From the NCBI GenBank assembly GCA_052139735.1, contig JBKQWB010000061.1:16858-80857 (forward strand): 64,000 nt of DNA, written 5' to 3'. The notes below the pieces were generated by a model. The model made no database searches, was not told where the DNA came from, and worked only from the letters and a program-made list of their open reading frames with translations. Positions 49,564-64,000 of the stretch are shown piece after piece. Numbering within the stretch: the stretch's first letter is position 1; every line of letters begins with the position of its first letter. The DNA comes from Smithella sp. (lineage in GTDB: Bacteria; Desulfobacterota; Syntrophia; Syntrophales; Smithellaceae). Made by a program: the position numbers and the translations under genes.

Positions 49564-51147
49564 ATGAGCAAGACTACAAAAAAATCTTTTTCTGAGAAAG
49601 AACGTAAATTGAGTATACATACTTATGAAGAGTTAGCCGCCCTGCACGCCATCGCCAAGATTCTGGCGCAGCCGGGGGATTTGCGTGATCAACTGGAACT
49701 GGCCATGAAGGAAATGAGCTCACGCCTTGGCATGCAGCGTGGGATGATATCCCTGATGGATCGCGAAAAAAAAGAAGCCTGGCTGGATATCGCCCATGAT
49801 GTCAATATTGATGGTTTGGAAGTTTCCTATAAACCGGGGGAAGGTATTACCGGTAAAGTAGCGGAAACCGGCCGTCCGATGGCAGTGGCGAATCTGGGCA
49901 AAGAGACACATTTCCTGGATCGCACCGGCGCGCGGCGTCATCTTAACCGCGCTGAGCTTTCATTTTTGTGTGTTCCTATTATGTATGACGCGAACGTTGT
50001 AGGCGTTTTATCCACCGATAAGATTGCTCAGCAGGTCGAAGATCTGGACAAAGAGTTGGCTATACTATCTTCTGTTGCCGAGTTGATGGCCAAGGCCGTT
50101 CATATTCGTGCGCTGGAAGAAGAAAACGAGCGGTTACGCAAAATAGTCGGCAGTACCCATGCTCCTTCTCTGGATATTATCGGCCATTCCAAATCAATGC
50201 AGGAAGTATTCGGCCTTGTGGCGCAGGTTGCTGATTCCAATACTACGGTCCTGATCAATGGTGAAACCGGCACTGGAAAAGAATTAATCGCCAGCGCTAT
50301 TCATAAAAACTCTTCACGTAAAAACGGCCCGCTGGTGCAGGTTAATTGTGCCGCTATTCCAGACACGCTGATTGAAAGCGAATTGTTTGGTCATGAAAAA
50401 GGCGCGTTTACAGGAGCCTTGCATCAACGCAGAGGACGTTTTGAAGAAGCTAATGGCGGCACAATTTTTCTGGATGAAGTAGGAGAGCTTTCCGCTGCCG
50501 CACAGGTAAAGCTATTACGAGTATTACAGGAAAAGAGATTTCAACCACTGGGTTCTTCCCGTATTATTAATGTTAATGTACGCATCATCGCGGCTACCAA
50601 CAGAAATCTGGAACAGGATATTACATCCGACCGTTTCCGCGCTGATTTGTTTTACCGTTTGAACGTATTTCCTATCTATTTGCCGCCGTTGCGCGAAAGA
50701 GGGAGTGATATAATTCTTTTAGCTGACCATTTTATCTTGAAGTACAGCAAGGAAATGGGGAAGAGCGTTAAAAAGATTTCAACAGCGGCGATCGAAGAAT
50801 TTTTATCTCACAAATGGCCGGGTAATGTGCGTGAACTGGAAAATTGCATTGAAAGAGCGGTATTGCTGACTAAAACAGATATGATCGAGTGTATTCATTT
50901 GCCACCGTCATTACATGTTAGAGAAAAAAAAGCAGAAAAAGTTGAACACAGCAAATTATCTTCTGTCGTTGAAGCACAGGAACGATCATTAATTATTGAT
51001 ACTCTGGAAGCAACAAGCGGCAATCAGACCAAGGCCGCAAATATTTTAGGGACAACAAAACGCATTATTCAATACAAAATCGGCAAGCTGGGAATTGATC
51101 CTAAACTCTTCCGCAAAAGTAATAAAGCCATCCAAAAGCATGATTAA
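49564..51147 (+). CDS. NifA-like GAF-AAA+-HTH sigma54 enhancer-binding protein
   Basis: [47 protein letters not shown]-terminal HTH. Confidence 0.93.
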
Positions 51148-52001: not shown

Positions 52002-52107
52002 TGTGCTTTTTAAAACAGAGACAATCTTTTTTAAACAGTGAAAAGATTTAAAAATAAATGATATACAACAATGTAATTTATTTTATAAAATTGGCACGAC
52101 TTTGGCA
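52002..52107 (+). promoter_or_regulatory. sigma54 (-24/-12) promoter with upstream NifA-type activator site
   Basis: TTGGCACGACTTTGGCA at 52091-52107 (GG-N10-GC); TGT-N10-ACA at 52002-52017. Confidence 0.7.
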
Positions 52108-52281
52108 TTTAACCTGTGGTGCTTTGTGATGTTGAGTGTCAGTAGAGTCATTTGCGTTACGAGAAACAAAAAACGAGGAGTAAAAACAGGTTAAAATATA
52201 TATGTACGGATACGTAAACTACAGGAATGTTTTACATATCTCATTATAGATTGCCGGAATAATCCGGTACAAATAAAAAAG

Positions 52282-52713
52282 GTGCTGGCGTTGAATAATA
52301 AAATTCCTAAAATATATCTCTTCCATTGTGCAATAAGCTACGATCAAGAAGAATTGCTGCGAAATTATTCCCCGCAGAATGGTGAAATTAAAATAATTTC
52401 ATTACCCTGTTCAGGAAAACTGGACATTCTGTACCTTACTAAAGCATTTGATACCGGCGCGGATGGTGCTGCCATTATGATATGTAAAGAAGGCGAGTGC
52501 CGTTACATGGAAGGTAATATGCGCGCCAGAAAGCGGGCACAGGCCATCGATGAATTGCTGCAAGAAGCCGGACTCGGAAAAGGTCGAACTAAAATAATTC
52601 AGATGGGCGACGGGGGCATAACAGCGGCTGTTCATGAGTTAGAAGAATTCTTATTTCAAATAAAGACCATAATTGAGAAATCTCCGGCTTTGCAAATATC
52701 GCATACGGAATAG
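52282..52713 (+). CDS. mvhD: MvhD/FlxD-type [2Fe-2S] protein
   Basis: FHC, LPCSGK, GADG..IC.EGEC.Y..GN..A.KR. Confidence 0.85.
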   Translation: MLALNNKIPKIYLFHCAISYDQEELLRNYSPQNGEIKIISLPCSGKLDILYLTKAFDTGADGAAIMICKEGECRYMEGNMRARKRAQAIDELLQEAGLGKGRTKIIQMGDGGITAAVHELEEFLFQIKTIIEKSPALQISHTE

Positions 52714-52749
52714 TTTTTCTTCAGTCCATAACGGTAAGGAGTACAAGGT

Positions 52750-53640
52750 ATGAAAAATGATAGCAAATTAGCAGTAAAAACCAGCGGAAAAGAGTTTATT
52801 TTCACTGCCGAGTATTTGCCGCTTGCCGGTACCGAGGTAAAGATCGATCCTAAAATATTCGGTAACAACGTGACAGCAGTAAACGTCGCTGATAATCACT
52901 ATGGTGTATCAATTTCCAGTCTGGCAGCCTCTTTTGCATTGAGCCAGGCCGGCATTGAACCGGTATTGCAAATCGTAACCAGAGACCGCAATCGTATAGC
53001 GCTTCAATCCGATCTTCTGGGAGCCGCTTATCTTGGTATTAAAAACGTGTTGTGTCTTTCCGGTTATCACCAAACGCTTATAGGGTGCAATGAATCAGCC
53101 AATGTTTTTGATGTTGATTCCATTCAACTCATTGATATAGTTAAAAAAATGAATAACGGTCAGTTGTTGGACGGCAAAAAAATCCAGGGGAGCTTTTGCA
53201 TGTTGATCGGTGCTGCCGCTAATCCGAATTTGAAGCCGCTCGAATTGAATATTTTAAGATTAAGTAAAAAAATAGCTGCAGGCGCCGATTTTATTCAAAC
53301 ACAGTCCGTATTTGATGTCGATGCATTTAAAGTCTGGTTGGAAGCCGTCTGCAATGTAGGACTTGCCGATAAGACAGCAATTCTTGCCGGTGTCCTGCCG
53401 CTCAAAAGCGCTGCCCAGGCTAAAGAATTAGCCGAGACTCATACCGACTTCGTGATTCCTGAAGCGATCATTGACCGGCTAACGGCTGCCGGTGGTTCCG
53501 AGGCTCAAGAAAAAGAGGGCGTTAAAATAGCCGCTGAAATAATAAAAAAACTCAAGGGCCTTCCGGGACTGAAAGGCGTCCATATTTTATCCGGTGGCAA
53601 CGAGTCAACTATTAACGAATTATTATCGTCCATATCGTAA
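52750..53640 (+). CDS. metF: Methylenetetrahydrofolate reductase family protein
   Basis: TAE..P, VNVADN, RDRNRIALQSDLLGA, GADFIQTQ, GVHI. Confidence 0.85.
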   Translation: MKNDSKLAVKTSGKEFIFTAEYLPLAGTEVKIDPKIFGNNVTAVNVADNHYGVSISSLAASFALSQAGIEPVLQIVTRDRNRIALQSDLLGAAYLGIKNVLCLSGYHQTLIGCNESANVFDVDSIQLIDIVKKMNNGQLLDGKKIQGSFCMLIGAAANPNLKPLELNILRLSKKIAAGADFIQTQSVFDVDAFKVWLEAVCNVGLADKTAILAGVLPLKSAAQAKELAETHTDFVIPEAIIDRLTAAGGSEAQEKEGVKIAAEIIKKLKGLPGLKGVHILSGGNESTINELLSSIS

Positions 53641-53658
53641 TAATTGAGACTGAATAAA

Positions 53659-55068
53659 ATGCCGAAGAAATATCATATCGAAACAAAAAAGATTGCGCCG
53701 AGATTGCCGAAAATAGGTAAGTTCGGAGTTGTTGACTGGCGTGAAGATTGCGCCAGGTGTCACAATTGCGTGAAAAAAGCCTGTGTATACGACCGTTACC
53801 GACAGGAAATGCAGTATATCAAAGATCTGGATGAATTTAATGCAATGTTCTTTGAATGTATGGGATGTTTCTCCTGCGTACAGAAATGCACGAAAGGCTT
53901 GCTTGCTTTAACAGTAAATCCAAAATACGAACAAATGGGTAATGGTTATTTTACACCTGATATTATTCTAACAACTTGGAATCAGGCGGAAACTGCCGGC
54001 ATTCCCGTTTCAGGCGCCGGCTATCGAGGTAAGTTTACAGGCACCGGGTTTGACTCCATGTGGACGGATATGTCTGAAATCGTTCGTCCGACTCGTGATG
54101 GAATTCATGGTCGGGAATATATCAGCACCACTGTTGATATCGGAAGAAAACCCAAACACCTTTCGTTTGAAGACAACAAACTGAAGACATCATTATTACC
54201 GCTGGTAGACCTGCCGGTTCCGATTATCATTGATATGTTCCCTGATAAATATCATTTTCCCAACCTACAGCCAATGTTACTGGCTGTTGCTGTTAAAACC
54301 GGTACGATGGTTATCTTTGACTGGGAACAGCATCATCTACTGGGAAAGTATGAAGAAAAATATTTATCGAACATAATTTTCTATCTTGGCAAAGAGACGT
54401 CTATGCCAACGGCGGATATACTTAAACAGTTGCGTCTTATTGAAATTGCCGATAGCGATAAAACCGAGCAGCGGATAAAAGAGATTAAAGCTGTCAATTC
54501 GGAACTTGTTGTTTCGGTCAGAGTTGAACTGGATGCACGCGGCGAGGAGAGGTGTATCGCGCTGGCTAATAACCCCATCGTTGAAGCCATACATATTGTG
54601 TCCGATATAAACGGTAATCAAACAGGAGTAGAAAAACCTAAATTTATAAAGGATATGACGCGGACCATCCACACGTCTCTTGTAAAAGGAGGCATCCGGG
54701 ATGAAGTCACCCTCATCGCCAGTGGCGGCATTGCTCTGGCGGAACATATGGCAAAAGAAATTATTTGCGGTGCGGACGCCATCACGATTAATATGCCGCT
54801 TTTAATCGGTCTTGAATGCCGATTTTGTACAAATTGCCGTGATGGTTTTGTCTGTCCGGCGAAGATTGAGACTATCACCACCCAATATGGGGTCGGACGT
54901 ATGACGAATTTAATTGCCGTTTGGCATGACCAGTTGATTGAGGTGATGGGAGCCATGGGGATGCGGGAAGCCCGCCGTCTGCGTGGTGAAACCGGCCGTG
55001 CATTATTTTTTGAAGATCTCGAGGAGGATACTTTTGGAAGGCTTTTTGGCAAAAGAGTCGGGGCTTAA
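53659..55068 (+). CDS. Ferredoxin + glutamate-synthase FMN-barrel-like subunit, degenerate paralog
   Basis: CARCHNC/CMGCFSC, LIASGGI, K.IICGADA, C..C..C....CP; lacks the QGAKPG motif. Confidence 0.8.
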   Translation: MPKKYHIETKKIAPRLPKIGKFGVVDWREDCARCHNCVKKACVYDRYRQEMQYIKDLDEFNAMFFECMGCFSCVQKCTKGLLALTVNPKYEQMGNGYFTPDIILTTWNQAETAGIPVSGAGYRGKFTGTGFDSMWTDMSEIVRPTRDGIHGREYISTTVDIGRKPKHLSFEDNKLKTSLLPLVDLPVPIIIDMFPDKYHFPNLQPMLLAVAVKTGTMVIFDWEQHHLLGKYEEKYLSNIIFYLGKETSMPTADILKQLRLIEIADSDKTEQRIKEIKAVNSELVVSVRVELDARGEERCIALANNPIVEAIHIVSDINGNQTGVEKPKFIKDMTRTIHTSLVKGGIRDEVTLIASGGIALAEHMAKEIICGADAITINMPLLIGLECRFCTNCRDGFVCPAKIETITTQYGVGRMTNLIAVWHDQLIEVMGAMGMREARRLRGETGRALFFEDLEEDTFGRLFGKRVGA

Positions 55069-56620
55069 AGAAGTCCTGCCTGAAAATACAATTAAAACAC
55101 TGGTGCCGGAAGTTGAGGTATCGAGTGAAGTCAAGCCGGCGCCCTCACGCTATCGTAATGAGATAGCCAAATATATCATCCGCCGAAGCAGTGATTGTAA
55201 ACTCTGTGGTAAATGTGCTCAGGTTTGTCCGCACGGCGTGCATGTATTGAAACCAGGTTATAAATTATTTTCTGCCCCGCATTTGAGCGTATGCATAGGT
55301 CCTTCCTGCCAGAAGACTGACCATTATTGTATAGACCTGTGTCCAAATAAAGCGCTTCAAATGGTTGAAAATCCCATGTTGAAGGCGATGGGTGACTATC
55401 GCTGGACACCGGATATGCTCATAGCGACCTGGAAAATGGCGGAAACAGGGAAATCCCCGTCACCTGAATACGGGTACGATTATGAAACCGGAGCTTCCGG
55501 AGGCGGGTTTGATCGGTTGCGATTCAAATTTCCTAAAAAACCACCCGTTGAATTACGAGACGATGAAATCGACACCAGTATTGTGCTCAACAAGCGGAAC
55601 GACGGCAGGCCACAGGTGAAAATCGATGTTCCCTGGTATGGCGGCGGTATGTCTTTCGGTTCCGTTAGTAACGTGATCCAGCTTTCCAAGGCACGTGCGG
55701 CCACGGCGTTTAATACCTTTACCTGTACCGGTGAAGGTGGATACATGGAACGCATGAAGCCATATGATAACCATGTCATCACACAAATTGCCACCGGTCT
55801 TTTCGGTGTTCGTGAAGAGACAATCCAGCGTGTCCGCATTGTTGAATTCAAATACGCGCAAGGGGCCAAGCCAGGTCTGGGTGGCCATCTGTTGGCCGAT
55901 AAAGTAACTCCGGATGTTGCCAGGATGCGTGAAACCGTTCTGGGTATTTCACTTTTTTCACCCTTTCCGTTTCATAGCGTTTACTCCATCGAGGATCATC
56001 AAAAACACATGGACTGGATCAAGCATGTTAACAGGCGGACCCTGATTGCCACCAAGGTCTCTACACCTAACGATGTGGATATGGTTGCTGTGGGAAGCTA
56101 TTCCGCCGGTACCCATATCGTGCATCTGGACGGCGGATACGGTGGAACCGGAGCAGCACCTGACATCGCCAAGAAAAATATCGCCATGCCGATTGAGTAT
56201 AGTATCGTCAAAGTCCATCGCTTCCTGGATCAGGAGGGTATTCGTGATAAGGTTACGCTGATCGTTAGCGGTGGATTGCGGACGCCTCATGACATTGCCA
56301 AAGCGATTGCGTTGGGGGCCGATGGTGTTGTTGTGGGCACTTCCGAACTGGTTGCACTGGGTTGCATAAGATGTTCACGCTGTGAAAGCGGTCGCGGTTG
56401 CCCGCGTGGTATTGCCACGACCGACCCAGAACTAGCCAAAGATGTTGATCTTGAATGGGGCACACAACGGATTATCAATCTATATGCCGCCTGGCGAAAG
56501 GAACTTGTAGAAATATTGAAACGATTCGGATTGCGGAGTGTGAGTGAGTTACGGGGACGCACAGACCTTCTGATGCACCTTGATTATACCAATGATAATG
56601 ATGTGGAGATTCATAGATGA
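55046..56620 (+). CDS. Ferredoxin + glutamate synthase FMN-binding subunit (archaeal GltB2/GlxD type)
   Basis: CKLCGKCAQVCP, GGMSFGS, TGEGG, KYAQGAKPGLGGHL, SGGLR, CIRCSRCESGRCPRGIAT; probable TTG start at 55046. Confidence 0.9.
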   Translation: MAKESGLKEVLPENTIKTLVPEVEVSSEVKPAPSRYRNEIAKYIIRRSSDCKLCGKCAQVCPHGVHVLKPGYKLFSAPHLSVCIGPSCQKTDHYCIDLCPNKALQMVENPMLKAMGDYRWTPDMLIATWKMAETGKSPSPEYGYDYETGASGGGFDRLRFKFPKKPPVELRDDEIDTSIVLNKRNDGRPQVKIDVPWYGGGMSFGSVSNVIQLSKARAATAFNTFTCTGEGGYMERMKPYDNHVITQIATGLFGVREETIQRVRIVEFKYAQGAKPGLGGHLLADKVTPDVARMRETVLGISLFSPFPFHSVYSIEDHQKHMDWIKHVNRRTLIATKVSTPNDVDMVAVGSYSAGTHIVHLDGGYGGTGAAPDIAKKNIAMPIEYSIVKVHRFLDQEGIRDKVTLIVSGGLRTPHDIAKAIALGADGVVVGTSELVALGCIRCSRCESGRGCPRGIATTDPELAKDVDLEWGTQRIINLYAAWRKELVEILKRFGLRSVSELRGRTDLLMHLDYTNDNDVEIHR

Positions 56621-59232
56621 ATAACGGGATGATCGAAAAACTTTTAGATTCCCGACAAAAACTGATTGAGGAATTAAACATTCCTTCACCTACTTACAAA
56701 GGGGAGGAAGAAGGTGGTTGCGGTGTCGTCGGCTTTTGTGCCACCGAGCCGGTTGCCGCCCGGCATATTCACGAGCCGTCCAAACAGATGCATAACCGTG
56801 GGAACGGTAAGGGCGGCGGAATTGCGGCGTTAGGTTTTATACCGGAGCAACTTGGAGTCACCCGCGATGTTTTGGATAACTATTATATGGTGCATATTGC
56901 GTTTCTGGATAATGAGATCAGGCCGGAACTGGAAAGCAAATACATCACTCCTTATTTCGAAATTAAAACTTCTCATCTGATGGATACCGTTGCTGACTGG
57001 ACAACAATTCCTTCTTTGGAAGCCAAGCCCCCGGATGTCATGCGCTATTTTGTTCGCGTTAAACCGGAAACGCTGGATGCCTTTATTTCGAAAAATGAAT
57101 TAGCTGGATTAAGCCGTGAAGATGCTGAAGGCGAATTCTTAAGCCAGCAAAGCGTTAAGCTGAATCAGGAATATTACGCTTCACTCGGTGATAAAAAAGC
57201 CTTCGTGATGTCTTACGGTAAGAATATCATGATCCTGAAAGTCGTTGGGTATGCGGAATCAATTACAGATTATTATAAGATCGACGATTTGAAGGCGCAT
57301 GTCTGGATTGCCCATCAACGGTTCCCAACCAAAGGAAGGGTCTGGCATCCTGGAGGCGCGCATCCCTTCGGAGCGATAAATACCGCGTTGGTCCATAACG
57401 GCGACTTTGCCAACTACAGTTCCGTCAGTGAATATCTTGCGCAACGTCATATTTATCCGCAATTCCTGACCGATACAGAAGTATCAGTTCAGATATTTGA
57501 TTTGCTGGATAGGACTTATCACTATCCGTTAGAATATATTATCGAGGCTTTGGCGCCTACGACAGAAATAGATTTCGACAGACTTGCCAAAGAGAAGCAG
57601 TCCATTTATCGTGCAATTCAGGCAACTCATATTCATTCTTCCCCGGATGGCCCCTGGTTCTTTATCATTGCCCGCACCTTGGCGAAGGCTGACAAATTTC
57701 AACTCATGGGTATTACCGATACATCCATGCTCCGTCCGCAGGTCTTCGCTTTTGCCGATGGTGAAGTACAAGTCGGCTTGATTTGTTCTGAAAAGCAGGC
57801 GATTGACGCAACATTACTAAGTATGTCTAAAGATGACAGCCGTATCTGCCCGGTTGCCGACAAGTACTGGAACGCCCGGGGCGGCAGTTCAACGGATGGC
57901 GGGTCGTTCATTTTTACTCTTGAAAAAGAGAAAGCCGGTAACTATCGGCTAAATTGTACTGATAAATTCGGTGTTCCTGTAAGGTTACCGTCAGGAATGG
58001 AAGTCGCTGATTTAACTAAAGAAATAAAAAAACCCGCTACTCATACTGATAAGATTGAGAAAGATATTCGTGAACGATTTGATGCCGACAGCCAGATAGT
58101 CTTCCATTATTTTACGGAAAGTCTTGTTAACTGGTCCTTTGCCGATATTGGCTTTGCCTGTGATACGGTTATTAAACTGGCTAAAGATTCGAATCAATTC
58201 GCAAAAGCCATTGAAATATTAACGCTGCTTAACGACCGGCGATATTGCACCGGTACGAAGAAGCGTAAGCACATCCTGCAAACCGTTCGTGCTGCTTTGC
58301 GCAAATTGTTTGCCCTTATCCCTTTAATAGGGGAAACATCGGCAAGTGAGTTCCGGTTGATCAATTGTAAAACCAGAAAACAATTAAGAGGACCTAATGT
58401 CGAAGAGAAGACTCTGGTAATCGATACGCTTGGTTTTCCGCCGGAAGGAAACGAATCGAATGCCTCGCTTTTATTAGACGGATACATGAAGGGTTGGAAA
58501 CACTTCATCGTTTATAACTGTGCCGGACAGCGTTTTACCGGTTGCGGCCTTGGACCTCACACTGAGGATGTTACGATCGATGTTTATGATAATGACGGCG
58601 ATTATCTCGGTTCCGGCATTGATGGTTTGACCATTACCGTCCACGGTAATGGTCAGGATCAATTGGGTCAGATCATTAAAGCCGGTAAGCTGGTGATTCA
58701 CGGAGACACGGGACAAACATTCTTGTATGGCGCCAAAGGCGGATCCATTTTTATTCTGGGTAATGCTGCCGGCCGGCCATTGATTAATTCCGTTGGTAAA
58801 CCAAGGGTCGTGATTAACGGCACCTGCCTGGATTTCCTTGCTGAATCCTTCATGGCGGGAGATGTCTTTAGCGGCGGCGGTTTTGTTATTCTGAACGGTA
58901 TAACATTTGATGATCAAGGCAACATAGTTACTTTGAAAGAACCCTATCCCGGCGGCAACCTGTTTTCGCTTGCTTCCGGAGGTGCCATATACGTACGCGA
59001 TCCTCATAAGTATCTTATCCGCGAGCAGTTGAACGGCGGAAATTTCTTCAAGATGACAGATCAAGATTGGGAGACGATCTTGCCTTATCTTCAGGAGAAT
59101 GAGCGTTTGTTCGGGATTAGAGTGGATGACCTGCTGACGGTTGACGGCAAACATAAGCAGCCCGGTCAAGTCTATCGAAAAGTTGCTCCGGATAAGCTGT
59201 CGGCTGACTTCCAAATCGAGTCAGACGAATAG
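56617..59232 (+). CDS. Class II glutamine amidotransferase + GXGXG domain (GltB1-GltB3 fusion)
   Basis: CGVVG after a short propeptide, HQRFPT, AHPF, HNGD, DTE; C-terminal GQRFTGCG, GDYLGSG, YGAKGG beta-helix. Confidence 0.88.
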   Translation: MNNGMIEKLLDSRQKLIEELNIPSPTYKGEEEGGCGVVGFCATEPVAARHIHEPSKQMHNRGNGKGGGIAALGFIPEQLGVTRDVLDNYYMVHIAFLDNEIRPELESKYITPYFEIKTSHLMDTVADWTTIPSLEAKPPDVMRYFVRVKPETLDAFISKNELAGLSREDAEGEFLSQQSVKLNQEYYASLGDKKAFVMSYGKNIMILKVVGYAESITDYYKIDDLKAHVWIAHQRFPTKGRVWHPGGAHPFGAINTALVHNGDFANYSSVSEYLAQRHIYPQFLTDTEVSVQIFDLLDRTYHYPLEYIIEALAPTTEIDFDRLAKEKQSIYRAIQATHIHSSPDGPWFFIIARTLAKADKFQLMGITDTSMLRPQVFAFADGEVQVGLICSEKQAIDATLLSMSKDDSRICPVADKYWNARGGSSTDGGSFIFTLEKEKAGNYRLNCTDKFGVPVRLPSGMEVADLTKEIKKPATHTDKIEKDIRERFDADSQIVFHYFTESLVNWSFADIGFACDTVIKLAKDSNQFAKAIEILTLLNDRRYCTGTKKRKHILQTVRAALRKLFALIPLIGETSASEFRLINCKTRKQLRGPNVEEKTLVIDTLGFPPEGNESNASLLLDGYMKGWKHFIVYNCAGQRFTGCGLGPHTEDVTIDVYDNDGDYLGSGIDGLTITVHGNGQDQLGQIIKAGKLVIHGDTGQTFLYGAKGGSIFILGNAAGRPLINSVGKPRVVINGTCLDFLAESFMAGDVFSGGGFVILNGITFDDQGNIVTLKEPYPGGNLFSLASGGAIYVRDPHKYLIREQLNGGNFFKMTDQDWETILPYLQENERLFGIRVDDLLTVDGKHKQPGQVYRKVAPDKLSADFQIESDE

Positions 59233-59262
59233 TTATTTTTTTCAAATGAGAGAGTATCGAAA

Positions 59263-59832
59263 ATGACAACAAGAATTACAAAACAGAAAGCCACTGGAGA
59301 TCTTTTCAAGGCCGTCCAGGAAAAAGCAGATGTTAATTTAAGTGTCTGCTACCAGTGTAAGAAGTGTTCTATCGGCTGTCCTGTAGCCGACCAGACCGAA
59401 TCGCCGCCTTCTGAAATCATACGAAGACTGCAACTCGGCGCCGGCGACGAACTATTACAGACTGACCTCATTTGGACATGTCTATGCTGTGAAACATGTT
59501 ACGCCAGGTGTCCTAATCAGATAAACTTTCCCGCTGTGATTGATGCCTTAAAGTCCATCGCTTTGGAAAAAGGTGTTGCCAGACCGGAGGGTGATGCGCC
59601 GTTATTTAACCATTTGTTTCTGAACACGGTCAAGTCTTACGGTCGCGTTTACGACCTGCAGGCTATTGCCCTGTATAAACTTAGAACCGGTAACTTGAAA
59701 CAGGATACGGATAAATTCCCCACGATGCTTAAAAAAGGCAAGATAGCAATACTGCCGCCGTCGGGTGGCGACAAAGGTAAAGTGAAGCGTATCTTCAAAA
59801 AGACAGCGCAAAACAGAGGAACAGGAAAATGA
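59263..59832 (+). CDS. hdrC: Heterodisulfide reductase subunit C-like
   Basis: CYQCKKCSIGCP and CLCCETCYARCP. Confidence 0.9.
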   Translation: MTTRITKQKATGDLFKAVQEKADVNLSVCYQCKKCSIGCPVADQTESPPSEIIRRLQLGAGDELLQTDLIWTCLCCETCYARCPNQINFPAVIDALKSIALEKGVARPEGDAPLFNHLFLNTVKSYGRVYDLQAIALYKLRTGNLKQDTDKFPTMLKKGKIAILPPSGGDKGKVKRIFKKTAQNRGTGK

Positions 59833-60704
59833 AATACGCATATTATCCAGGGTGCTCTGCTCATTCCACTGCTCGCGACATGCATGAATCATGTCTGGCG
59901 GTAGCGAAAGCACTTGATATTGAACTGAATGAAATCAAGGGTTGGACCTGTTGCGGGGCCAGTGCCGCTCACCAGACCGACCGGAATTTGGCTGTCTCGT
60001 TGGCCTCTGCCAACCTCCTCTTGGCCAAAGAGATGGGCATGGACATGGTGGTCAATTGCGCCGCCTGTTATAACCGCTCGAAGGTTGCCAACTATGAAAT
60101 TAAAAGTTCCGAAGAGGTGAAACGATCCGTTGCTGATAGTCTCGGAGAAATTTATGACGGATCGGTTCCGGTACGACACTTTGTTGAGATTCTTTTAAAA
60201 GATGTTGGACCGGCTAAGTTGCTTAAGAAGATTATTAATCCGTTGAAGGATCTCAAAGTGGCTGCTTATTACGGCTGTTACCTGGTCCGTCCGCCGGAAG
60301 CGACCAACTTTGACGATCCGGAAAATCCCACGATTCTTGAAAGCCTGATCGATGTGACAGGCGGTACGAGTGTTGAGTGGTCGGGCAAAGTAGATTGCTG
60401 CGGCGGTATGCAAAACCTTACACGAACAGAAATTACTATCCGGCGTTCGGCTGCAGTCATAGAGATGGCAAAAGCTGCGGGCGCCGAGTGCATCGTCGTT
60501 GCCTGCCCGATGTGTCAAATCAGCCTTGATGTCAGGCAGGCCGATATGGAAAAGCTTCTCGGCAAGAAATATGATATGCCGATTATTTATCTTACACAAT
60601 TACTCGGTCTTGCTCTTGGTCTTTCACCTAAAGAACTCGGGTTGAACAAACTAATGGTAAGTCCGGCAGCCATATTAAAGAAAGCAAAAGCAGCAATCTC
60701 GTAA
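59829..60704 (+). CDS. hdrB: Heterodisulfide reductase subunit B-like (two CCG domains)
   Basis: YYPGC, WTCCG, CAAC, YYGC, DCCGG, ACPMC. Confidence 0.92.
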   Translation: MKYAYYPGCSAHSTARDMHESCLAVAKALDIELNEIKGWTCCGASAAHQTDRNLAVSLASANLLLAKEMGMDMVVNCAACYNRSKVANYEIKSSEEVKRSVADSLGEIYDGSVPVRHFVEILLKDVGPAKLLKKIINPLKDLKVAAYYGCYLVRPPEATNFDDPENPTILESLIDVTGGTSVEWSGKVDCCGGMQNLTRTEITIRRSAAVIEMAKAAGAECIVVACPMCQISLDVRQADMEKLLGKKYDMPIIYLTQLLGLALGLSPKELGLNKLMVSPAAILKKAKAAIS

Positions 60705-60752
60705 AAACTGCTTATTGATGATAGACGATTAAAGACTATTTAAGGTTACGAT

Positions 60753-63700
60753 ATGCATAAAAGTGAAAAAAAATTAACAGGTGCTGTTCTGGTTCAGGGC
60801 GGCGGCATCGCCGGTATTCAGGCAGCCCTCGACCTCGCTGATTCCGGATTTAAAGTCTATCTTGTTGAGCGTGATGCGGCCATTGGCGGCATGATGGCTC
60901 AACTTGACAAGACATTCCCGACCGGCGATTGCGCTACCTGTATTGTATCCCCCAAACTGGTCGAATGTGCCCGCAATATCAATATTGAGATACTCACCCT
61001 TTCCGAACTCGTTGGTTTGGAGGGGGAACCGGGTAATTTTAGGGCTAAAATCAAGGTCTCTCCAAGATATGTCGATGAAGCGAAATGCAATGCCTGCGGT
61101 CAGTGTACCGATGCCTGTCCGGTTAACGTGCCCAATCCGTTTGACTGTGAAATGGGTACCCGAAAAGCGATCGCCAAGCTCTATGCTCAAGCAACGCCTA
61201 ATAAATTTGGTATTCTGAAGCTCGGTCATTCTCCCTGCAGAGTTGAATGTCCGGCGAACATCAACATCCAGGGCTACATTCAATTAATAAAGAAAAAGGA
61301 ATACCTCAAGGCCGTTAATCTCATTCGGGAGCGAAATCCGCTCTCCGCCATTTGCGGACGGGTTTGTACTCACCCCTGCGAATTAAAATGCACGCGCAAT
61401 GATGTAGATTCATCTGTTTCCATCAGATTATTAAAGCGTTTCGCTTCGGACCAGGAAATGGACATGGTCAAATCCGGTAAACTGGCTCTTCCGGAAGAGA
61501 AGATTTCATCCGCAGACGCCAAAAAAGTTGCCGTCATAGGCGCCGGACCTGCCGGTCTTACAGCATCTGCCGACTTGGCGGACAGGGGATATTCAGTGAC
61601 CGTTTATGAATCGACGTCAGCAGCAGGCGGTATGTTGCGATGGGGAATTCCCGTTTACCGCTTGCCGAAAGATGTACTGGATTATGAAATAGAGCTTATC
61701 CGTCGCAAGGGCATTAAATTTGTTTATAATACCCGCATCGGGATCGATATTTCCATGGATAAACTGCGCCAGGAAAATGCGGCCGTATTTATCAGCATCG
61801 GCACCCAGAGCAGCAGGAGTCTGGGTGTTGAAGGTGAAGACAAACCAGGGATCTCTTATGGTCTGGAGTTCCTGCGTCAAGCCGGAGATAAGGATAACCG
61901 TCCTAAACTGAACGGCAAAGTCGTGGTTATCGGCGGCGGCAACGTTGCTGTCGATGTAGCCCGATCTGCTTTACGCCTTGGCGCCGACGCAGTCGAGATG
62001 GTGAGCTTGGAACAGCGCTATGAGATGCCGGCTTTACCCGAAGAGGTTGCCGCCGCACTCGAAGAGAATATAAAAATTCACAACGGATGGGGTCCGAAAC
62101 GTGTTCTCGGAAACGATAAAGTCAATGCCATCGAGCTGAAACGCTGCACCAGAGTTTTTGATGAAACAGGGCGATTCAGCCCCGCCTATAATGATAATGA
62201 GACAACGACATTAAATGCCGACCAAATTATCGTTGCCATCGGTCAGGCGGTCGATAAAGACTCCCTTGGTAACATGGGAGCGGCAACAGAACGTAATTTT
62301 TACAAGGTCGATAAAATCACTCTGGAAACATCCGTAAAAGGCGTATTTGCCGGTGGTGATGACATTCCAGGCAGTGCTTCCGTTATCGGCGCTGTCGGCG
62401 CGGGCAAGCGGGCGGCGGAATCGATTGATCGTTATCTCAAAGGCGAGGATATGTTGTCCGCAAGATTTGAGTCTACGGTAAAACAAATTGCTCCGGAATT
62501 TCTGCCTGAAACCAAGGGCATGGAAAAGAAGCCGTGTGCCGAACAGGCAATCCTGCCGGTTGCTCAACGTGCTAATAATTTTAACGAAGTTGAAGAAGGT
62601 CTTACGGAAGAAGCTGCCCTGGCAGAAGCCGAGCGTTGTCTCAATTGTGCTCTGTGTTCCGAGTGCCAGCAATGCGTTGTTGCCTGCGAACAGCATGCTA
62701 TTGACCATTCGATGACGGAAAAGATCATCGAGCTTAATGTCGGTTCTGTTATCCTGACACCCGGTTTTGAAGAATTTGATGCTGCGAAAAAAGGCGAATA
62801 TGGCTATAACCGGTATCCTAATGTGATTACCAGTGTACAGTTCGAGCGTATGCTCTCGGCTTCCGGGCCGTTCGATGGCCATGTCATCCGGCGATCCGAT
62901 GGTCAACCTGCCAAACGTGTCGCCTGGATCCAGTGCGTCGGCTCAAGGGATACACGCTGCGGCAATGAATACTGCTCTTCAGTTTGCTGTATGGTTTCCA
63001 CCAAGCAATCGATGATAGCGGCCGACCACTTACCCGGACTGGAAGCATCCATTTTTTATATGGATATCCGGGCTCATGGCAAGGACTTTGACCAGTATTA
63101 CGAGCGGGCAAAGAAACAGGGTGTAAATTACATCAAAGGTATACCGTCCCGCATTATCCAAATGCCCGATACAAGGGACCTGCGGGCGACATTCTATAAC
63201 GAAGCCAATCAATTACAGGAAAAGGATTTTGACCTGGTTATTTTATCTGTCGGCATGGAACCCGGCTTATCTGCCGTGGATACTGCCAAACGTTTGGGTA
63301 TTGATCTGAATGAATATGATTTCTGTTCCACCGATCGATTTACGCCGTTGAATACCTCCCGTCCGGGAGTTTTTGTCGGCGGCGCCTTCCAGGAACCGAA
63401 GGATATCCCGGAAACAGTCACTCAGGCCAGCGCAGCGGCTTCAATGGCTATGGAATTGTTATCATCCGCCCGCAACACACTGATTACCAAAGCAGTCTAC
63501 CCGGATGAGCACGATGTCACCGACGAGCAGCCACGGATAGGCGTTTTCATCTGCCACTGCGGCCGCAACATTGCTTCCGTGATCGATGTGGAAAAAGTGG
63601 TTCACGCCGTGGCTCAGGATCCGAATGTTATCTTTGCCACTCATACGTTATTCACCTGTTCAGATACCAGTCTGGTCAATATCCGTGACGCCATCCGCGA

Positions 63701-64000
63701 TAACCGGCTCAACCGTATTGTTGTAGCTTCCTGCACACCGCGTACGCACGAACCGATCTTCCGGGATACACTCCGTGAAGCGGGATTAAACCAGTATTTA
63801 TTCGAAATGGCTAACATCCGTGACCAATGTTCCTGGGTACACTCGACGATACCGGAGCAGGCCACTCAGAAAGCTGTCGAACTGGTGAAGATGTCTATTG
63901 CCCGGGCCCGTAGATTAGTTCCATTACAGGGTTCTTATTCCAACGTCATTCAGAATGGTCTGGTTATCGGCGGCGGCCTCAGCGGTATGACAGCAGCTCT
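60753..64000 (+). CDS. hdrA: Giant HdrA/HdrL-type flavoprotein with inserted GltD-like NAD(P)H module, 3'-truncated by the window edge (absent from the ORF track)
   Basis: ATG 60753: GGGIAG, LDKTFPTGDC, CPANI..CGRVC.HPCE, VAVIGAGPAG, VIGGGNVA, QCVGSRD, YCSSVCC, second HdrA repeat IGVFICHCG; same frame at the edge (LVIGGGLSGM). Confidence 0.92.
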   Translation, partial: MHKSEKKLTGAVLVQGGGIAGIQAALDLADSGFKVYLVERDAAIGGMMAQLDKTFPTGDCATCIVSPKLVECARNINIEILTLSELVGLEGEPGNFRAKIKVSPRYVDEAKCNACGQCTDACPVNVPNPFDCEMGTRKAIAKLYAQATPNKFGILKLGHSPCRVECPANINIQGYIQLIKKKEYLKAVNLIRERNPLSAICGRVCTHPCELKCTRNDVDSSVSIRLLKRFASDQEMDMVKSGKLALPEEKISSADAKKVAVIGAGPAGLTASADLADRGYSVTVYESTSAAGGMLRWGIPVYRLPKDVLDYEIELIRRKGIKFVYNTRIGIDISMDKLRQENAAVFISIGTQSSRSLGVEGEDKPGISYGLEFLRQAGDKDNRPKLNGKVVVIGGGNVAVDVARSALRLGADAVEMVSLEQRYEMPALPEEVAAALEENIKIHNGWGPKRVLGNDKVNAIELKRCTRVFDETGRFSPAYNDNETTTLNADQIIVAIGQAVDKDSLGNMGAATERNFYKVDKITLETSVKGVFAGGDDIPGSASVIGAVGAGKRAAESIDRYLKGEDMLSARFESTVKQIAPEFLPETKGMEKKPCAEQAILPVAQRANNFNEVEEGLTEEAALAEAERCLNCALCSECQQCVVACEQHAIDHSMTEKIIELNVGSVILTPGFEEFDAAKKGEYGYNRYPNVITSVQFERMLSASGPFDGHVIRRSDGQPAKRVAWIQCVGSRDTRCGNEYCSSVCCMVSTKQSMIAADHLPGLEASIFYMDIRAHGKDFDQYYERAKKQGVNYIKGIPSRIIQMPDTRDLRATFYNEANQLQEKDFDLVILSVGMEPGLSAVDTAKRLGIDLNEYDFCSTDRFTPLNTSRPGVFVGGAFQEPKDIPETVTQASAAASMAMELLSSARNTLITKAVYPDEHDVTDEQPRIGVFICHCGRNIASVIDVEKVVHAVAQDPNVIFATHTLFTCSDTSLVNIRDAIRDNRLNRIVVASCTPRTHEPIFRDTLREAGLNQYLFEMANIRDQCSWVHSTIPEQATQKAVELVKMSIARARRLVPLQGSYSNVIQNGLVIGGGLSGMTAA

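What the first reader, a model, noticed from the sequence alone, without database searches (positions are those of the whole stretch)
52002..64000. sigma54 operon joining a split glutamate synthase with MetF, MvhD and HdrCBA: candidate Hdr-coupled GOGAT or C1-nitrogen complex
Seen in sequence: eight co-directional, mostly abutting or overlapping genes, mvhD-metF-gltB2'(degenerate)-gltB2-gltB1/B3-hdrC-hdrB-hdrA(L), behind one -24/-12 promoter. No gltD gene precedes hdrA, but a GltD-like NAD(P)H/FAD module is embedded in the HdrA. Established: HdrA-MvhD modules do flavin-based electron bifurcation, and HdrABC-MvhD-MetFV complexes occur in acetogens. Canonical GOGAT needs GltD or ferredoxin, and N-methylglutamate synthase is built from GlxBCD-type split GOGAT subunits. 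Inference: this is either a glutamate synthase/oxidase wired to an Hdr electron hub, which would suit an energy-limited syntroph, or an anaerobic methylamine/N-methylglutamate-type route feeding methylene-THF via MetF. I know of no characterised complex with this composition.
Basis: partly seen in the sequence, partly recalled or inferred. Interest (0 to 1): 0.85.

Follow-up and report, generated by a model that had tools for sequence, protein, structure and literature searches.

The report
Hdr- and MetF-linked glutamate synthase operon
This Smithella-like bacterium encodes its only glutamate synthase in one ten-gene operon with heterodisulfide-reductase-type and MetF-type electron-transfer proteins, a gene set kept together in at least eight bacterial phyla, which points to an undescribed way of powering nitrogen assimilation in anaerobes.

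Summary
It has ten genes: mvhD'-metF-gltB2'-gltB2-gltB1/B3 fusion-hdrC-hdrB-hdrL, then mvhD and metV beyond the window end. A glnA start follows. A NifA-like sigma-54 activator and a -24/-12-like site lie upstream.

- **Conservation:** Of the 80 best related loci in a species-level genome collection, 32 hold all ten genes in this order and 14 are contig-truncated but consistent. Six are permuted or variant forms with Hdr. Sixteen keep MvhD and MetFV without Hdr.
- **Nitrogen context:** The commonest neighbours are amtB, PII and glnA. This genome has no other Glu_synthase-family gene and no ELFV glutamate dehydrogenase hit.
- **Catalytic state:** GltB2 and the glutaminase domain keep the canonical glutamate synthase (GOGAT) residues.
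- **MetF:** In this clade the cluster's MetF has lost the pterin-binding Asp (0 of 33 sequences). A separate, canonical MetF-MetV fusion sits elsewhere in the genome.

Best reading: this is the cell's GOGAT, fed by an HdrL/HdrBC/MvhD/MetFV-derived module from NAD(P)H, possibly by electron bifurcation to ferredoxin. The methylamine/N-methylglutamate reading is not supported. Six full-text searches found no description of such a cluster. Physical coupling and bifurcation remain inferences.

The parts
49564..51147 (+). sigma-54 enhancer-binding activator (GAF, AAA+ and HTH_8 domains), NifA-like
   Evidence: Pfam Sigma54_activat 246.8 bits, GAF and HTH_8. Best NCBIfam model is NifA TIGR01817, 490.4 bits against a cut-off of 528.85. 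Homologues at 84-92% identity flank the related three-gene GOGAT loci of 5 congeners.
52092..52107 (+). -24/-12 (sigma-54)-like promoter element TGGCACGACTTTGGCA
   Evidence: One mismatch to TGGCAC-N5-TTGCW. Sites matching at least 9 of 11 specified positions occur upstream of mvhD' in 9 of 41 related loci, against 16 of 820 random 400-nt pieces of the same loci. Several of the 9 are close kin.
52282..52713 (+). mvhD' (divergent MvhD/FlpD, 143 aa; predicted [2Fe-2S] carrier)
   Evidence: PF02662, 79.6 bits. Four Cys (C16, C43, C68, C73) are invariant in 44 sequences. An mvhD-like gene heads the cluster in nearly all related loci.
52750..53640 (+). metF* (MTHFR-family TIM-barrel flavoprotein, 296 aa, lacking the pterin-binding Asp)
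   Evidence: PF02219, 103.7 bits. The Glu28 equivalent (E21) and Gln183 equivalent (Q185) are kept. The Asp of the RGD motif is Tyr106.
53644..55068 (+). gltB2' (474 aa): two-[4Fe-4S] ferredoxin-like N-terminus plus a degenerate FMN-type TIM barrel; proposed electron-entry and adaptor subunit
   Evidence: Glu_synthase 44.9 bits plus Fer4. Twelve Cys are invariant, and block 121-160 is conserved in 44 sequences. The QGAKPG substrate loop is missing (read by eye). The AF2 model has pLDDT 75.6 and a TIM barrel like FMN oxidases and IMPDH. In other organisms it is fused to GltB2, to a GlcD-like FAD/Fe-S protein, or to both plus GXGXG.
54983..56620 (+). gltB2 (545 aa by the first GTG): ferredoxin-like N-terminus plus the catalytic FMN/synthase domain of glutamate synthase
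   Evidence: Glu_synthase 307.8 bits. It aligns to Azospirillum GltS alpha 813-1171 at 183.7 bits with the GEGG, QGAKPG, YSIED, GGTGA and C..C..CP.G motifs kept. A fourth Cys in C461-x2-C464-x2-C467-x5-C473 is the only motif-level difference.
56617..59232 (+). gltB1/gltB3 fusion (871 aa): Ntn (PurF-type) glutaminase domain, linker, GXGXG beta-helix domain
   Evidence: GATase_6 and GXGXG. Cys35 in EEGGCGVVGF is invariant in 8 of 8 aligned homologues down to 58% identity. 7656 relatives at E<=1e-10 among 8000 scored.
59263..59832 (+). hdrC (189 aa, 2x[4Fe-4S])
   Evidence: TIGR03290, 66 bits; Fer4_17 and Fer4_8.
59829..60704 (+). hdrB (291 aa, two CCG domains)
   Evidence: TIGR03288, 221.9 bits; PF02754 with 2 stretches.
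60753..64000 (+). hdrL (1489 aa in all, continuing to L003 14080): HdrA N-terminus, inserted NfnB/GltD-like NAD(P)H-FAD-2x[4Fe-4S] module (about 158-664), rest of HdrA, then a second HdrA module. It is followed outside the window by mvhD (L003 14046-14540) and metV (L003 14537-15205).
   Evidence: HdrA2 model 978.9 bits in 5 stretches; NF009410 553 bits at 158-664. PDB: HdrA 5odc_A 586 bits in 4 stretches; the insertion is most like NfnA/Stn-type and NfnI large subunits, with GltD at 168 bits. mvhD FlpD 174.3 bits and metV DUF5981 127.7 bits.

Best explanation
The operon encodes this organism's only glutamate synthase, of a split, Fe-S-rich type: GltB2', catalytic GltB2 and a fused GltB1-GltB3. 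In place of a GltD subunit it encodes an electron-input machinery related to the Moorella-type MetFV-HdrABC-MvhD complex.

**Proposed mechanism**
1. NAD(P)H is oxidised at the NfnB/GltD-like module inserted in HdrL.
2. An HdrA flavin splits the electron pair.
3. The high-potential electrons pass through HdrC/HdrB, MetV, the MetF-like flavoprotein and MvhD' into the Fe-S clusters of GltB2'.
4. From there they reach the [4Fe-4S]/FMN site of GltB2.
5. At that site, 2-iminoglutarate is reduced to glutamate. It forms from 2-oxoglutarate and ammonia tunnelled from the glutaminase domain.
6. The low-potential electrons would reduce ferredoxin.

Expression is probably under a NifA-like sigma-54 activator, together with glnA.

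**Shown:** gene content, conservation, nitrogen context, the residue states, and that this is the sole GOGAT locus.

**Inferred:** that the proteins form one complex, the direction and path of electron flow, and bifurcation. In this clade MetF is read as a flavin-carrying electron-transfer subunit, not as the cell's methylene-THF reductase.
For: 1. **Sole GOGAT.** In the 98.3%-complete genome, PF01645 hits only gltB2 and gltB2' of this cluster. No ELFV glutamate dehydrogenase was found. In 4 of 5 congeners tested, the cluster also holds the only strong Glu_synthase genes.
2. **Catalytic residues kept.** The GltB2 signature matches Azospirillum GltS alpha. The glutaminase Cys35 is invariant in 8 of 8 homologues.
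3. **Nitrogen context.** A glnA start follows metV here, and a full glnA (80% identity) follows metV in congener G020. Across 86 loci the commonest neighbours are AmtB (14 loci), GlnA (12), PII (12), EBP (8), GS-III (5) and CarB/CarA (5/4). The activator is NifA-like.
4. **One unit.** Of the 80 best loci out of 571 confirmed relatives, 32 hold all ten genes in the same order. They come from eight phyla by record title. Fourteen are contig-truncated but consistent, and 6 are permuted or variant forms that still hold Hdr. In two of these, L057 and L058, nine of the ten genes lie in a rotated order up to the end of the fetched stretch. metF and metV bracket the GOGAT and hdr genes, so the two gene sets are interleaved.
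5. **A clade that is always Hdr-linked.** In a FastTree tree of the fusion protein, a clade of 45 rows (support 100) is Hdr-linked wherever the contig allows a call (44 of 45).
6. **MetF is a dedicated extra copy.** Congeners with the cluster carry two MTHFR-family genes, and those without it carry only the 520-605-aa MetF-MetV fusion. In this clade 0 of 33 MetFs keep the Asp that binds the pterin (26 Tyr, 6 Phe, 1 His), against 20 of 22 outside it. In E. coli, D120N raises Km more than 40-fold and lowers kcat to 0.3% (PMC11094777, passages read).
7. **GltB2' is where donor modules attach.** In other organisms it is fused to GltB2, to a GlcD-like FAD/Fe-S dehydrogenase, and in one 3016-aa protein to GlcD-like plus GltB2 plus GXGXG.
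8. **Transcript evidence.** Metatranscriptome contigs 95-99% alike bridge five sets of gene junctions: mvhD'/metF, gltB2'/gltB2, gltB2/fusion, fusion/hdrC/hdrB and hdrL/mvhD/metV.
9. **Thermodynamics (recalled values, my inference).** 2-oxoglutarate + Gln -> 2 Glu with NAD(P)H releases about 50 kJ/mol. That is enough to co-reduce ferredoxin.
Against: - No experiment or structure shows that these proteins bind one another. Conserved synteny can also reflect co-regulation.
- Sixteen related loci keep MvhD and MetFV with the GOGAT genes without any Hdr. Four have only MvhD plus the core. Five congeners have a GlcD-like gene instead. Hdr is therefore not essential to this GOGAT family.
- The role of MetFV is unexplained. 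Outside this clade MetF keeps all three catalytic residues, so it may be a true substrate site there.
- HdrB keeps both CCG domains. That could mean an unknown disulfide substrate, and not merely electron relay.
- The 80 loci examined are those most similar to this window's protein, so the frequencies are biased toward its own type.
- The sigma-54 site is one mismatch from consensus, and similar sites are not enriched window-wide.
- RNA-library contigs can contain DNA and do not prove a single transcript.
- One congener (G020) also has a canonical 1554-aa GltB.
Confidence: 0.55

Rival explanations
1. Two independent enzymes share an operon only for co-regulation. One is a ferredoxin-dependent split GOGAT (MvhD'-GltB2'-GltB2-GltB1/3). 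The other is a Moorella-type methylene-THF reductase (MetFV-HdrCB-HdrL-MvhD).
For: - All six gene types of the Moorella hexamer are present. The complex is described in passages read.
- The GOGAT core occurs without Hdr or MetFV in some loci (type B).
Against: - metF and metV are separated by about 11.5 kb of GOGAT and hdr genes, and this interleaved order is kept across phyla.
- MetF here lacks the pterin-binding Asp, as do all 33 MetFs of the clade.
- A canonical MetF-MetV fusion exists elsewhere in the genome, and it is the only MTHFR in congeners that lack the cluster.
- Hdr-less relatives still keep MetFV beside the GOGAT genes (16 loci).
Confidence: 0.2
2. MetFV is a real C1 site. Either methyl-THF (E0' about -200 mV) is oxidised to supply electrons to GOGAT, or the complex is a two-headed reductase that makes both methyl-THF and glutamate from one electron hub.
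For: - Outside this clade 20 of 22 cluster MetFs keep Glu, Asp and Gln, and they sit directly upstream of gltB2'.
- The analogous position in type B loci is held by a GlcD-like 2-hydroxyacid-type FAD/Fe-S dehydrogenase, which is fused to GltB2' in some proteins. This suggests that substrate dehydrogenases act as donors.
- Both methyl-THF and D-lactate couples lie near -200 mV, too positive for NAD+ but suitable for GOGAT (recalled values, inference).
Against: - In this window's clade the pterin-binding Asp is gone in 33 of 33 MetFs, and the Gln183 equivalent is replaced in 21 of 33.
- Catabolic C1 flux and nitrogen-assimilation flux do not match (inference).
Confidence: 0.15
3. The GOGAT-like core runs backwards as a glutamate-oxidising module that feeds electrons into Hdr for amino-acid catabolism.
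For: Smithella-type organisms are energy-limited syntrophs, and Hdr complexes can run in the confurcating direction (general knowledge; passages on HdrA/NfnB fusions read).
Against: - The glutaminase Cys is conserved.
- The amtB/PII/glnA neighbourhood points to assimilation.
- With no other GOGAT and no GDH found, this locus is needed for glutamate synthesis.
Confidence: 0.05
4. An anaerobic N-methylglutamate/methylamine pathway built from MgsABC-like subunits, which delivers C1 units to THF through MetF.
For: MgsABC are homologues of GltB1, GltB3 and GltB2 (recalled). MetF is present.
Against: - No sarcosine-oxidase-like (Mgd) genes lie in or beside the operon.
- The only complete GS-family gene found in the genome is an ordinary type I glnA (454.8 bits).
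- The neighbours are amtB and PII.
- GltB2 keeps the full GOGAT signature.
- MetF lacks the pterin-binding Asp.
Confidence: 0.03

Closest known systems
MetFV-HdrABC-MvhD methylene-THF reductase of Moorella thermoacetica (Mock et al. 2014; paper not held, known to me from passages in PMC5861303, PMC9012536 and PMC5736913)
   Same: - The same six protein families are encoded in one cluster.
- HdrA carries two fused HdrA modules.
- NADH is the proposed donor.
- The low-potential acceptor is unidentified.
   Different: - Three GOGAT genes and a second MvhD are set between metF and hdrC.
- metF and metV are not adjacent.
- HdrA carries an NfnB/GltD-like insertion.
- MetF lacks the Asp120 equivalent.
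- The context is nitrogen assimilation, not the Wood-Ljungdahl pathway.
Bacterial NADPH-GOGAT (GltB/GltD) and Fd-GOGAT (passages of PMC8097209)
   Same: - PurF-type glutaminase domain.
- FMN/synthase domain with conserved motifs and a cluster next to the FMN.
- GXGXG beta-helix domain.
- A GltD-like NAD(P)H-FAD-2x[4Fe-4S] module is present in the operon.
   Different: - The large subunit is split into three genes, and the central domain is replaced by a GltB2' paralogue with extra Fe-S clusters.
- A 4-Cys motif replaces the 3-Cys motif of the [3Fe-4S] cluster.
- The GltD-like module is embedded in HdrA.
- MvhD, MetFV and HdrBC are additional.
Archaeal-type split GOGAT (separate GltB1, GltB2, GltB3) and F420-dependent GltS fusions (mentioned in PMC9012536)
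   Same: - Domains are encoded as separate genes.
- GltB2 has a ferredoxin-like N-terminus.
- The electron-input module is variable.
- Split forms next to a sigma-54 EBP occur in the same order (L022, L023).
   Different: - GltB1 and GltB3 are fused here.
- An extra GltB2' subunit is present.
- The donor module is Hdr/MetFV/MvhD, not FrhB-like.
HdrL of Desulfobacterium autotrophicum and the HdrA-NfnB fusions (HdrA9-11) of ANME-1 (passages of PMC2702500 and PMC9012536)
   Same: A large HdrA with a GltD/NfnB-like NAD(P)H module, followed by mvhD.
   Different: Those HdrL loci are described beside dsr or fdh genes. None is described beside GOGAT and MetFV genes.

Membership tests
Glutamate synthase (GOGAT, GltB type) | PurF/Ntn-type glutaminase domain with the catalytic Cys | tested here: met
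   GATase_6 hit. Cys35 in EEGGCGVVGF is invariant in 8 of 8 homologues. It lies behind a 34-residue leader, which implies propeptide removal (inference).
Glutamate synthase (GOGAT, GltB type) | FMN/synthase domain with the conserved substrate and FMN motifs | tested here: met
   PF01645, 307.8 bits. The alignment to Azospirillum GltS alpha 813-1171 keeps GEGG, QGAKPG, ARxR, YSIED, GGTGA, GGL.T and GA(D/E). Which residues bind 2-oxoglutarate is recalled, not tested.
Glutamate synthase (GOGAT, GltB type) | Fe-S cluster Cys motif beside the FMN | tested here: met
   The three Cys of the GltS motif align, and a fourth Cys (C464) is added. Reading this as a [4Fe-4S] cluster instead of [3Fe-4S] is inference.
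Glutamate synthase (GOGAT, GltB type) | GXGXG beta-helix domain | tested here: met
   PF01493, 46.8 bits at residues 637-805.
Glutamate synthase (GOGAT, GltB type) | Separate GltD subunit, or free ferredoxin, as the reductant | tested here: not met
   No gltD gene lies in the operon or downstream. A GltD-like module exists only inside HdrL. Five other GltD-like modules lie elsewhere in the genome, none beside GOGAT genes.
Glutamate synthase (GOGAT, GltB type) | Glutamine- and 2-oxoglutarate-dependent glutamate formation | not testable with these tools
   This needs an enzyme assay.
MetFV-HdrABC-MvhD methylene-THF reductase (Moorella type) | metF, metV, hdrA, hdrB, hdrC and mvhD in one cluster | tested here: met
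MetFV-HdrABC-MvhD methylene-THF reductase (Moorella type) | MetF with the catalytic and pterin-binding residues (E. coli Glu28, Asp120, Gln183) | tested here: not met
   Glu and Gln are kept, but Asp is replaced by Tyr106. In the clade 0 of 33 MetFs have Asp. That the RGD Asp of human MTHFR equals E. coli Asp120 is recalled. The Gln183 equivalence was counted directly.
MetFV-HdrABC-MvhD methylene-THF reductase (Moorella type) | Contiguous hdrCBA-mvhD-metVF order in a Wood-Ljungdahl context | tested here: not met
   metF lies at the 5' end and metV at the 3' end of the operon. The neighbours are nitrogen-assimilation genes.
HdrABC-type flavin-based electron-bifurcating complexes | HdrA flavin/Fe-S protein, HdrB with two CCG domains, HdrC and MvhD | tested here: met
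   HdrA 5odc_A at 586 bits. PF02754 with 2 stretches. HdrC TIGR03290. MvhD FlpD at 174 bits.
HdrABC-type flavin-based electron-bifurcating complexes | Coupled reduction of a high-potential acceptor and ferredoxin | not testable with these tools
   This needs an enzyme assay.
N-methylglutamate synthase pathway (MgsABC, GmaS, MgdABCD) | Linked gmaS and sarcosine-oxidase-like mgd genes, in a methylamine context | tested here: not met
   No such domains occur in the operon or its flanks. The neighbours across loci are AmtB, PII and GlnA. The rest of the genome was not searched for mgd genes.
sigma-54-dependent operon | GG/GC -24/-12 element plus a cognate enhancer-binding protein | tested here: inconclusive
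   The element matches 10 of 11 specified positions, about 190 nt upstream of mvhD', and a NifA-like EBP lies upstream. No transcription start site was mapped.

The most novel reading that the evidence does not exclude
This is a new class of flavin-based electron-bifurcating enzyme, found in anaerobes of at least eight phyla. It would be an NAD(P)H-dependent, ferredoxin-reducing glutamate synthase. The strongly exergonic GOGAT reaction serves as the high-potential arm of an HdrA flavin, so nitrogen assimilation pays back part of its cost as reduced ferredoxin. A MetF-derived flavoprotein that no longer binds folate, with MetV and MvhD, forms the wire between HdrBC and the GOGAT core. More widely, GltB2' would be a universal docking subunit. 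Through it this GOGAT family could take electrons from interchangeable modules: Hdr, MetFV, or GlcD-like 2-hydroxyacid dehydrogenases.
Probability: 0.35. Interest if true: 0.9.

Novelty: new variant of a known kind. Interest (0 to 1): 0.78.

Why it matters
- **Energy cost of nitrogen assimilation.** GS-GOGAT is the main route of ammonium assimilation, and its known reductants are NAD(P)H via GltD, ferredoxin, or F420H2 in some archaea. A GOGAT wired to an Hdr-type bifurcating module would be a new electron-input solution. It would also show how energy-starved anaerobes recover energy from a biosynthetic step that otherwise wastes about 50 kJ/mol (recalled value).
- **A concrete high-potential partner.** The acceptor side of the Moorella-type MetFV-HdrABC-MvhD complex has stayed open since 2014. 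This relative has a high-potential partner encoded in the same operon.
- **Recruitment of a C1 enzyme.** The cluster's MetF would be a case of a C1 enzyme recruited as an electron-transfer subunit.
- **Annotation and ecology.** The cluster is present in MAGs labelled as peat and bog isolates, and matching contigs occur in peat and bioreactor RNA libraries. Annotation pipelines currently split it into 'glutamate synthase', 'MTHFR' and 'heterodisulfide reductase', which can mislead metabolic reconstructions, for example by scoring metF/hdr as Wood-Ljungdahl genes.

Tried and rejected
- **Complex prediction.** GltB2' + MvhD' + MetF, each as a 44-row alignment, with MetF as the scored partner, gave no verdict (score 0.02, mark 0.32). 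It counts neither for nor against binding.
- **Fold of GltB2'.** The AF2 model has mean pLDDT 75.6. Foldseek against the PDB returned only generic FMN-oxidase/IMPDH TIM barrels (TM 0.3-0.5). This confirms a barrel but gives no specific function.
- **Promoter and terminator scan of the 15.8-kb locus.** Counts were no higher than in shuffles, and no clear terminator follows metV.
- **RNA contigs.** No contig of the four runs covered L003 15313-15823, and X1 had none in 1-528. This is not usable as evidence of transcript ends. Depths cannot rank genes.
- **Mock et al. 2014 (PMC4135698).** The paper is not held, so the Moorella complex is cited from passages in other papers.
- **Literature searches for a GOGAT+MetFV+Hdr cluster.** None of the listed papers whose passages I read describes it (PMC2702500, PMC9012536, PMC5736913, PMC7325909, PMC6046458, PMC12054007, 10.1101/2024.09.26.615249, PMC5947623). 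Subscription journals are not covered. Gene tables there could list such clusters without comment.
- **MetF-GltB2' fusion proteins.** I looked for these as Rosetta-stone evidence among the best 150 of 824 GltB2' relatives, and scanned 12 unusually long ones with Pfam. I found GlcD-like and GltB2 fusions but no MetF fusion.
- **N-methylglutamate reading.** Considered and rejected; see the rival explanations.
- **L027 as a Chloroflexi record.** L027 is a 4.7-kb contig labelled Dehalococcoidales that is 97% identical to this window's fusion protein. I did not count it as independent Chloroflexi evidence, because mis-binning is likely.

Full report
**What is in the sequence**

The region 52.0-64.0 kb holds eight co-directional genes with gaps of -86 to +48 nt. 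Pfam and NCBIfam identify them as follows:

| Gene | Window coordinates | Size | Main hits |
|---|---|---|---|
| mvhD' (divergent MvhD) | 52282-52713 | 143 aa | FlpD 79.6 bits |
| metF (MTHFR family) | 52750-53640 | 296 aa | MTHFR 103.7 bits |
| gltB2' | 53644-55068 | 474 aa | ferredoxin-like N-terminus; weak Glu_synthase 44.9 bits |
| gltB2 | 54983-56620 | 545 aa | Glu_synthase 307.8 bits; ferredoxin-like N-terminus |
| gltB1/gltB3 fusion | 56617-59232 | 871 aa | GATase_6 and GXGXG |
| hdrC | 59263-59832 | 189 aa | TIGR03290, Fer4 |
| hdrB | 59829-60704 | 291 aa | two CCG stretches |
| hdrL | from 60753 | 1489 aa | large HdrA, runs off the window |

The window is C61:16858-80857 of a 125-contig, 98.3%-complete genome. 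Reading on along the contig gives the rest of the operon.
- HdrL has an HdrA N-terminus, an NfnB/GltD-like module at about 158-664, the rest of HdrA, and a second HdrA module.
- It is followed by a strong mvhD (164 aa) and metV (222 aa, DUF5981).
- After about 520 bp of AT-rich spacer comes the first 33 codons of glnA, and then the contig ends.

Upstream lie a GAF-AAA+-HTH sigma-54 activator whose best model is NifA, a tRNA-Gln gene, and a -24/-12-like element at 52092-52107. The unit has ten genes, and it contains every gene type of the Moorella MetFV-HdrABC-MvhD cluster, with three GOGAT genes and a second mvhD set into it.

**Organism and relatives**

Homologues of the fusion protein at 90-92% identity are named 'Smithella sp.' by their sources.
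- Among 24 other genomes of the same genus, 6 carry a fusion protein at 83-96% identity. The full cluster was confirmed in G020.
- Five others carry a 57-59% identical paralogue, and 13 gave no strong match.
- The 57-59% type ('type B') has only gltB2'-gltB2-fusion, next to the same activator (84-92% identity). In 5 of 5 loci it is preceded by a 616-aa GlcD-like FAD_binding_4/FAD-oxidase_C/Fer4 gene.
- A genome of another family in the same order (G036) has fusion-hdrC-hdrB-hdrL-mvhD-metV at 51-77% identity.

**Conservation across bacteria**

A scan of one genome per species found at least 571 loci encoding relatives of the fusion protein, and the 80 most similar were kept. I mapped the ten proteins on these by tblastn.

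| Architecture | Loci (of 80) |
|---|---|
| All ten genes in this window's order | 32 |
| Cut by contig ends but consistent with that order | 14 |
| Permuted or variant forms that include Hdr | 6 |
| MvhD + MetFV + the three GOGAT genes, no Hdr (two gene orders) | 16 |
| MvhD + the GOGAT core only | 4 |
| Too short to call | 8 |

- By record title, the 32 full clusters come from eight phyla: Thermodesulfobacteriota, Chloroflexota, Planctomycetota, Verrucomicrobiota, Spirochaetota, Armatimonadota, Acidobacteriota and Myxococcota.
- In two permuted loci, L057 and L058, the order is fusion-hdrCB-hdrL-mvhD-metV-mvhD'-metF-gltB2'. Nine of the ten genes are thus kept in a rotated order, up to the end of the fetched stretch.
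- In a FastTree tree of 87 fusion proteins, a clade of 45 rows (support 100) contains this window. It is Hdr-linked wherever the contig allows a call (44 of 45). The other side of the tree is mixed.
- The sample is biased toward relatives of this window's protein, and kin are not independent.

Even so, conserved interleaving of 'C1', 'GOGAT' and 'Hdr' genes over such distances is hard to explain without a common function.

**It is a glutamate synthase for nitrogen assimilation**
- GltB2 aligns to the FMN/synthase domain of Azospirillum GltS alpha (residues 813-1171, 183.7 bits) with the signature motifs intact. Its cluster motif carries a fourth Cys.
- The glutaminase Cys (C35) is invariant in 8 of 8 homologues down to 58% identity.
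- In this genome PF01645 hits only the two cluster genes. No ELFV glutamate dehydrogenase was found, and one complete glnA was found.
- In 4 of 5 congeners tested, the cluster also holds the only strong Glu_synthase genes. G020 has a canonical GltB as well.
- The last 117 nt of the contig are identical to the start of the glnA on contig C64, so the contig probably breaks in a second glnA copy. In congener G020 a complete glnA (80% identity) follows metV.
- I clustered 517 flanking ORFs of 86 loci. The most recurrent neighbours are AmtB (14 loci), GlnA (12), PII (12), a class I GATase (9), the EBP (8), GS type III (5), and CarB (5) and CarA (4).

This context, with the NifA-like activator, points clearly to the GS-GOGAT pathway. 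It argues against the N-methylglutamate/methylamine idea.

**The MetF is not an ordinary MTHFR**

The cluster MetF keeps the Glu28 equivalent (E21) and the Gln183 equivalent (Q185; the count places E. coli Q183 on this column). The Asp of the conserved RGD motif is Tyr106. I recall that this Asp is E. coli Asp120.
- In the Hdr-linked clade, 0 of 33 MetFs have Asp (26 Tyr, 6 Phe, 1 His), and 21 of 33 have also replaced the Gln. Outside the clade 20 of 22 keep Asp and 21 of 22 keep Gln.
- Asp120 makes a bidentate hydrogen bond to the pterin. D120N raises Km more than 40-fold and lowers kcat to 0.3% (PMC11094777, passages read; see also PMC11868366).
- The genome has a second MTHFR, a 519-aa MetF-MetV fusion with Glu, Asp and Gln intact.
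- Congeners with the cluster have both genes. Congeners without it have only the fusion.

The cluster MetF is therefore an extra copy that travels with the cluster, and in this clade it has probably lost folate chemistry.

**GltB2' as adaptor**

GltB2' has 12 invariant Cys (two ferredoxin-type motifs plus the C-x2-C-x2-C-x5-C motif shared with GltB2) and a strongly conserved block at 121-160. It lacks the QGAKPG substrate loop, which I read by eye from the sequence.
- Its relatives form a small family: 243 representatives at E<=1e-30 among 1.84 billion.
- Some are fused to GltB2.
- Some are fused to a GlcD-like FAD/Fe-S dehydrogenase.
- One 3016-aa protein joins GlcD-like, GltB2', GltB2 and GXGXG.

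These fusions show that the gene upstream of gltB2' can encode a physically attached electron-donor module. No MetF fusion was seen among the 12 long proteins I scanned.

**Expression**

Contigs from four metatranscriptomic libraries (bioreactor and peat, 95-99% alike) lie on the cluster. They bridge the junctions mvhD'/metF, gltB2'/gltB2, gltB2/fusion, fusion/hdrC/hdrB and hdrL/mvhD/metV. This is compatible with co-transcription but does not prove a single transcript, and DNA carry-over cannot be excluded.

Sigma-54-like sites (at least 9 of 11 positions) occur upstream of mvhD' in 9 of 41 related loci, against 16 of 820 background pieces.

**Mechanism proposed**

I read the operon as a GOGAT whose GltD has been replaced by an Hdr-type module.
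1. NAD(P)H enters at the GltD-like insertion of HdrL.
2. An HdrA flavin may bifurcate the electron pair.
3. The high-potential branch runs through HdrCB, MetV, MetF* and MvhD' to GltB2' and then to GltB2.
4. The low-potential branch goes to ferredoxin.

From recalled values the GOGAT reaction with NAD(P)H releases about 50 kJ/mol: E0' of about -130 mV for 2-oxoglutarate+NH4+/glutamate, about -14 kJ/mol for glutamine hydrolysis, and -320 mV for NADH. That would allow co-reduction of ferredoxin.

This is inference. Complex formation, electron path and bifurcation are untested. The Hdr-less and GlcD-type relatives show that Hdr is one of several interchangeable inputs. Where MetF is intact it may be a true substrate site: methyl-THF as donor, or a second reductive head.

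**Comparison with what is known**

The nearest described systems are these:
- the Moorella MetFV-HdrABC-MvhD complex
- canonical NADPH- and Fd-GOGAT
- archaeal split and F420-dependent GOGATs
- the HdrL and HdrA-NfnB fusions of Desulfobacterium and ANME-1

None combines GOGAT with MetFV and Hdr. Six full-text searches found no description of such a cluster. Subscription journals and supplementary tables were not searchable.

**Verdict**

The Hdr-coupled GOGAT reading is the best supported, and the C1/methylamine reading is not. I rate this a new variant of a known kind, with high interest because it makes a possible new class of electron-bifurcating enzyme directly testable.

Noticed in passing
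L016-L020 (congeners G017, G002, G007, G013, G003); proteins P0144, P0161, P0270: A 'type B' GOGAT locus has a GlcD-like FAD_binding_4/FAD-oxidase_C/Fer4 gene directly upstream of gltB2'-gltB2-fusion. In other organisms the same module is fused to GltB2', and one 3016-aa protein joins GlcD-like, GltB2', GltB2 and GXGXG. This suggests a GOGAT driven by a 2-hydroxyacid-type dehydrogenase.
   Followed up: partly
window 51220-51293: A tRNA-Gln (anticodon CTG) gene lies between the NifA-like activator and the operon's promoter region.
   Followed up: no
L003 15707-15823 (end of contig C61) and contig C64: The last 117 nt of the contig (the start of glnA) are identical to an internal glnA on contig C64, while the sequence upstream of that point is unrelated. 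The assembly probably broke in a second glnA copy next to the operon.
   Followed up: partly
L027 (JBKQML010000263.1, 4.7 kb): A short contig binned as Dehalococcoidales is 97-99% identical at protein level to this Smithella-like cluster. This is more likely mis-binning than recent transfer. The tree nevertheless places the Smithella/Syntrophorhabdus clusters next to Chloroflexota ones, which hints at older horizontal transfer.
   Followed up: partly
G000 contig C95, about 15-28 kb: A second Hdr locus lies in the same genome. It has an HdrL-like gene whose GltD-like module is 44% identical to the one here, two mvhD, and hdrB and hdrC at 39-41% identity. Four further GltD-like modules lie on C96, C38, C11 and C71.
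   Followed up: no
L029, L032, L033 about 21.2 kb; six loci in all (e.g. L046 1160-2794): A third, distant GltB2-like paralogue recurs near the cluster in six loci. It is about 544 aa, with Glu_synthase at 57.9 bits and 25-27% identity to GltB2.
   Followed up: no
G006:C7:1873410-1876023 and G016:C103: In congener G006 the fusion gene matches in two overlapping pieces (residues 1-527 and 512-871), which suggests a frameshift or split gene. In G016 the match starts at residue 83, at a contig end.
   Followed up: no
L003 5449 (window 56591): RNA-library contigs from three of the four runs laid (X1, X2, X3) lack 6 nt near the gltB2/fusion junction relative to this genome. This looks like a strain-level in-frame indel.
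   Followed up: no
window 48179-49324 (- strand): A 381-aa ORF sits beside the activator. Its homologue in congener locus L017 is a class I/II aminotransferase (228.7 bits), and homologues sit beside the activator in 5 related loci. This is another nitrogen-metabolism neighbour.
   Followed up: partly
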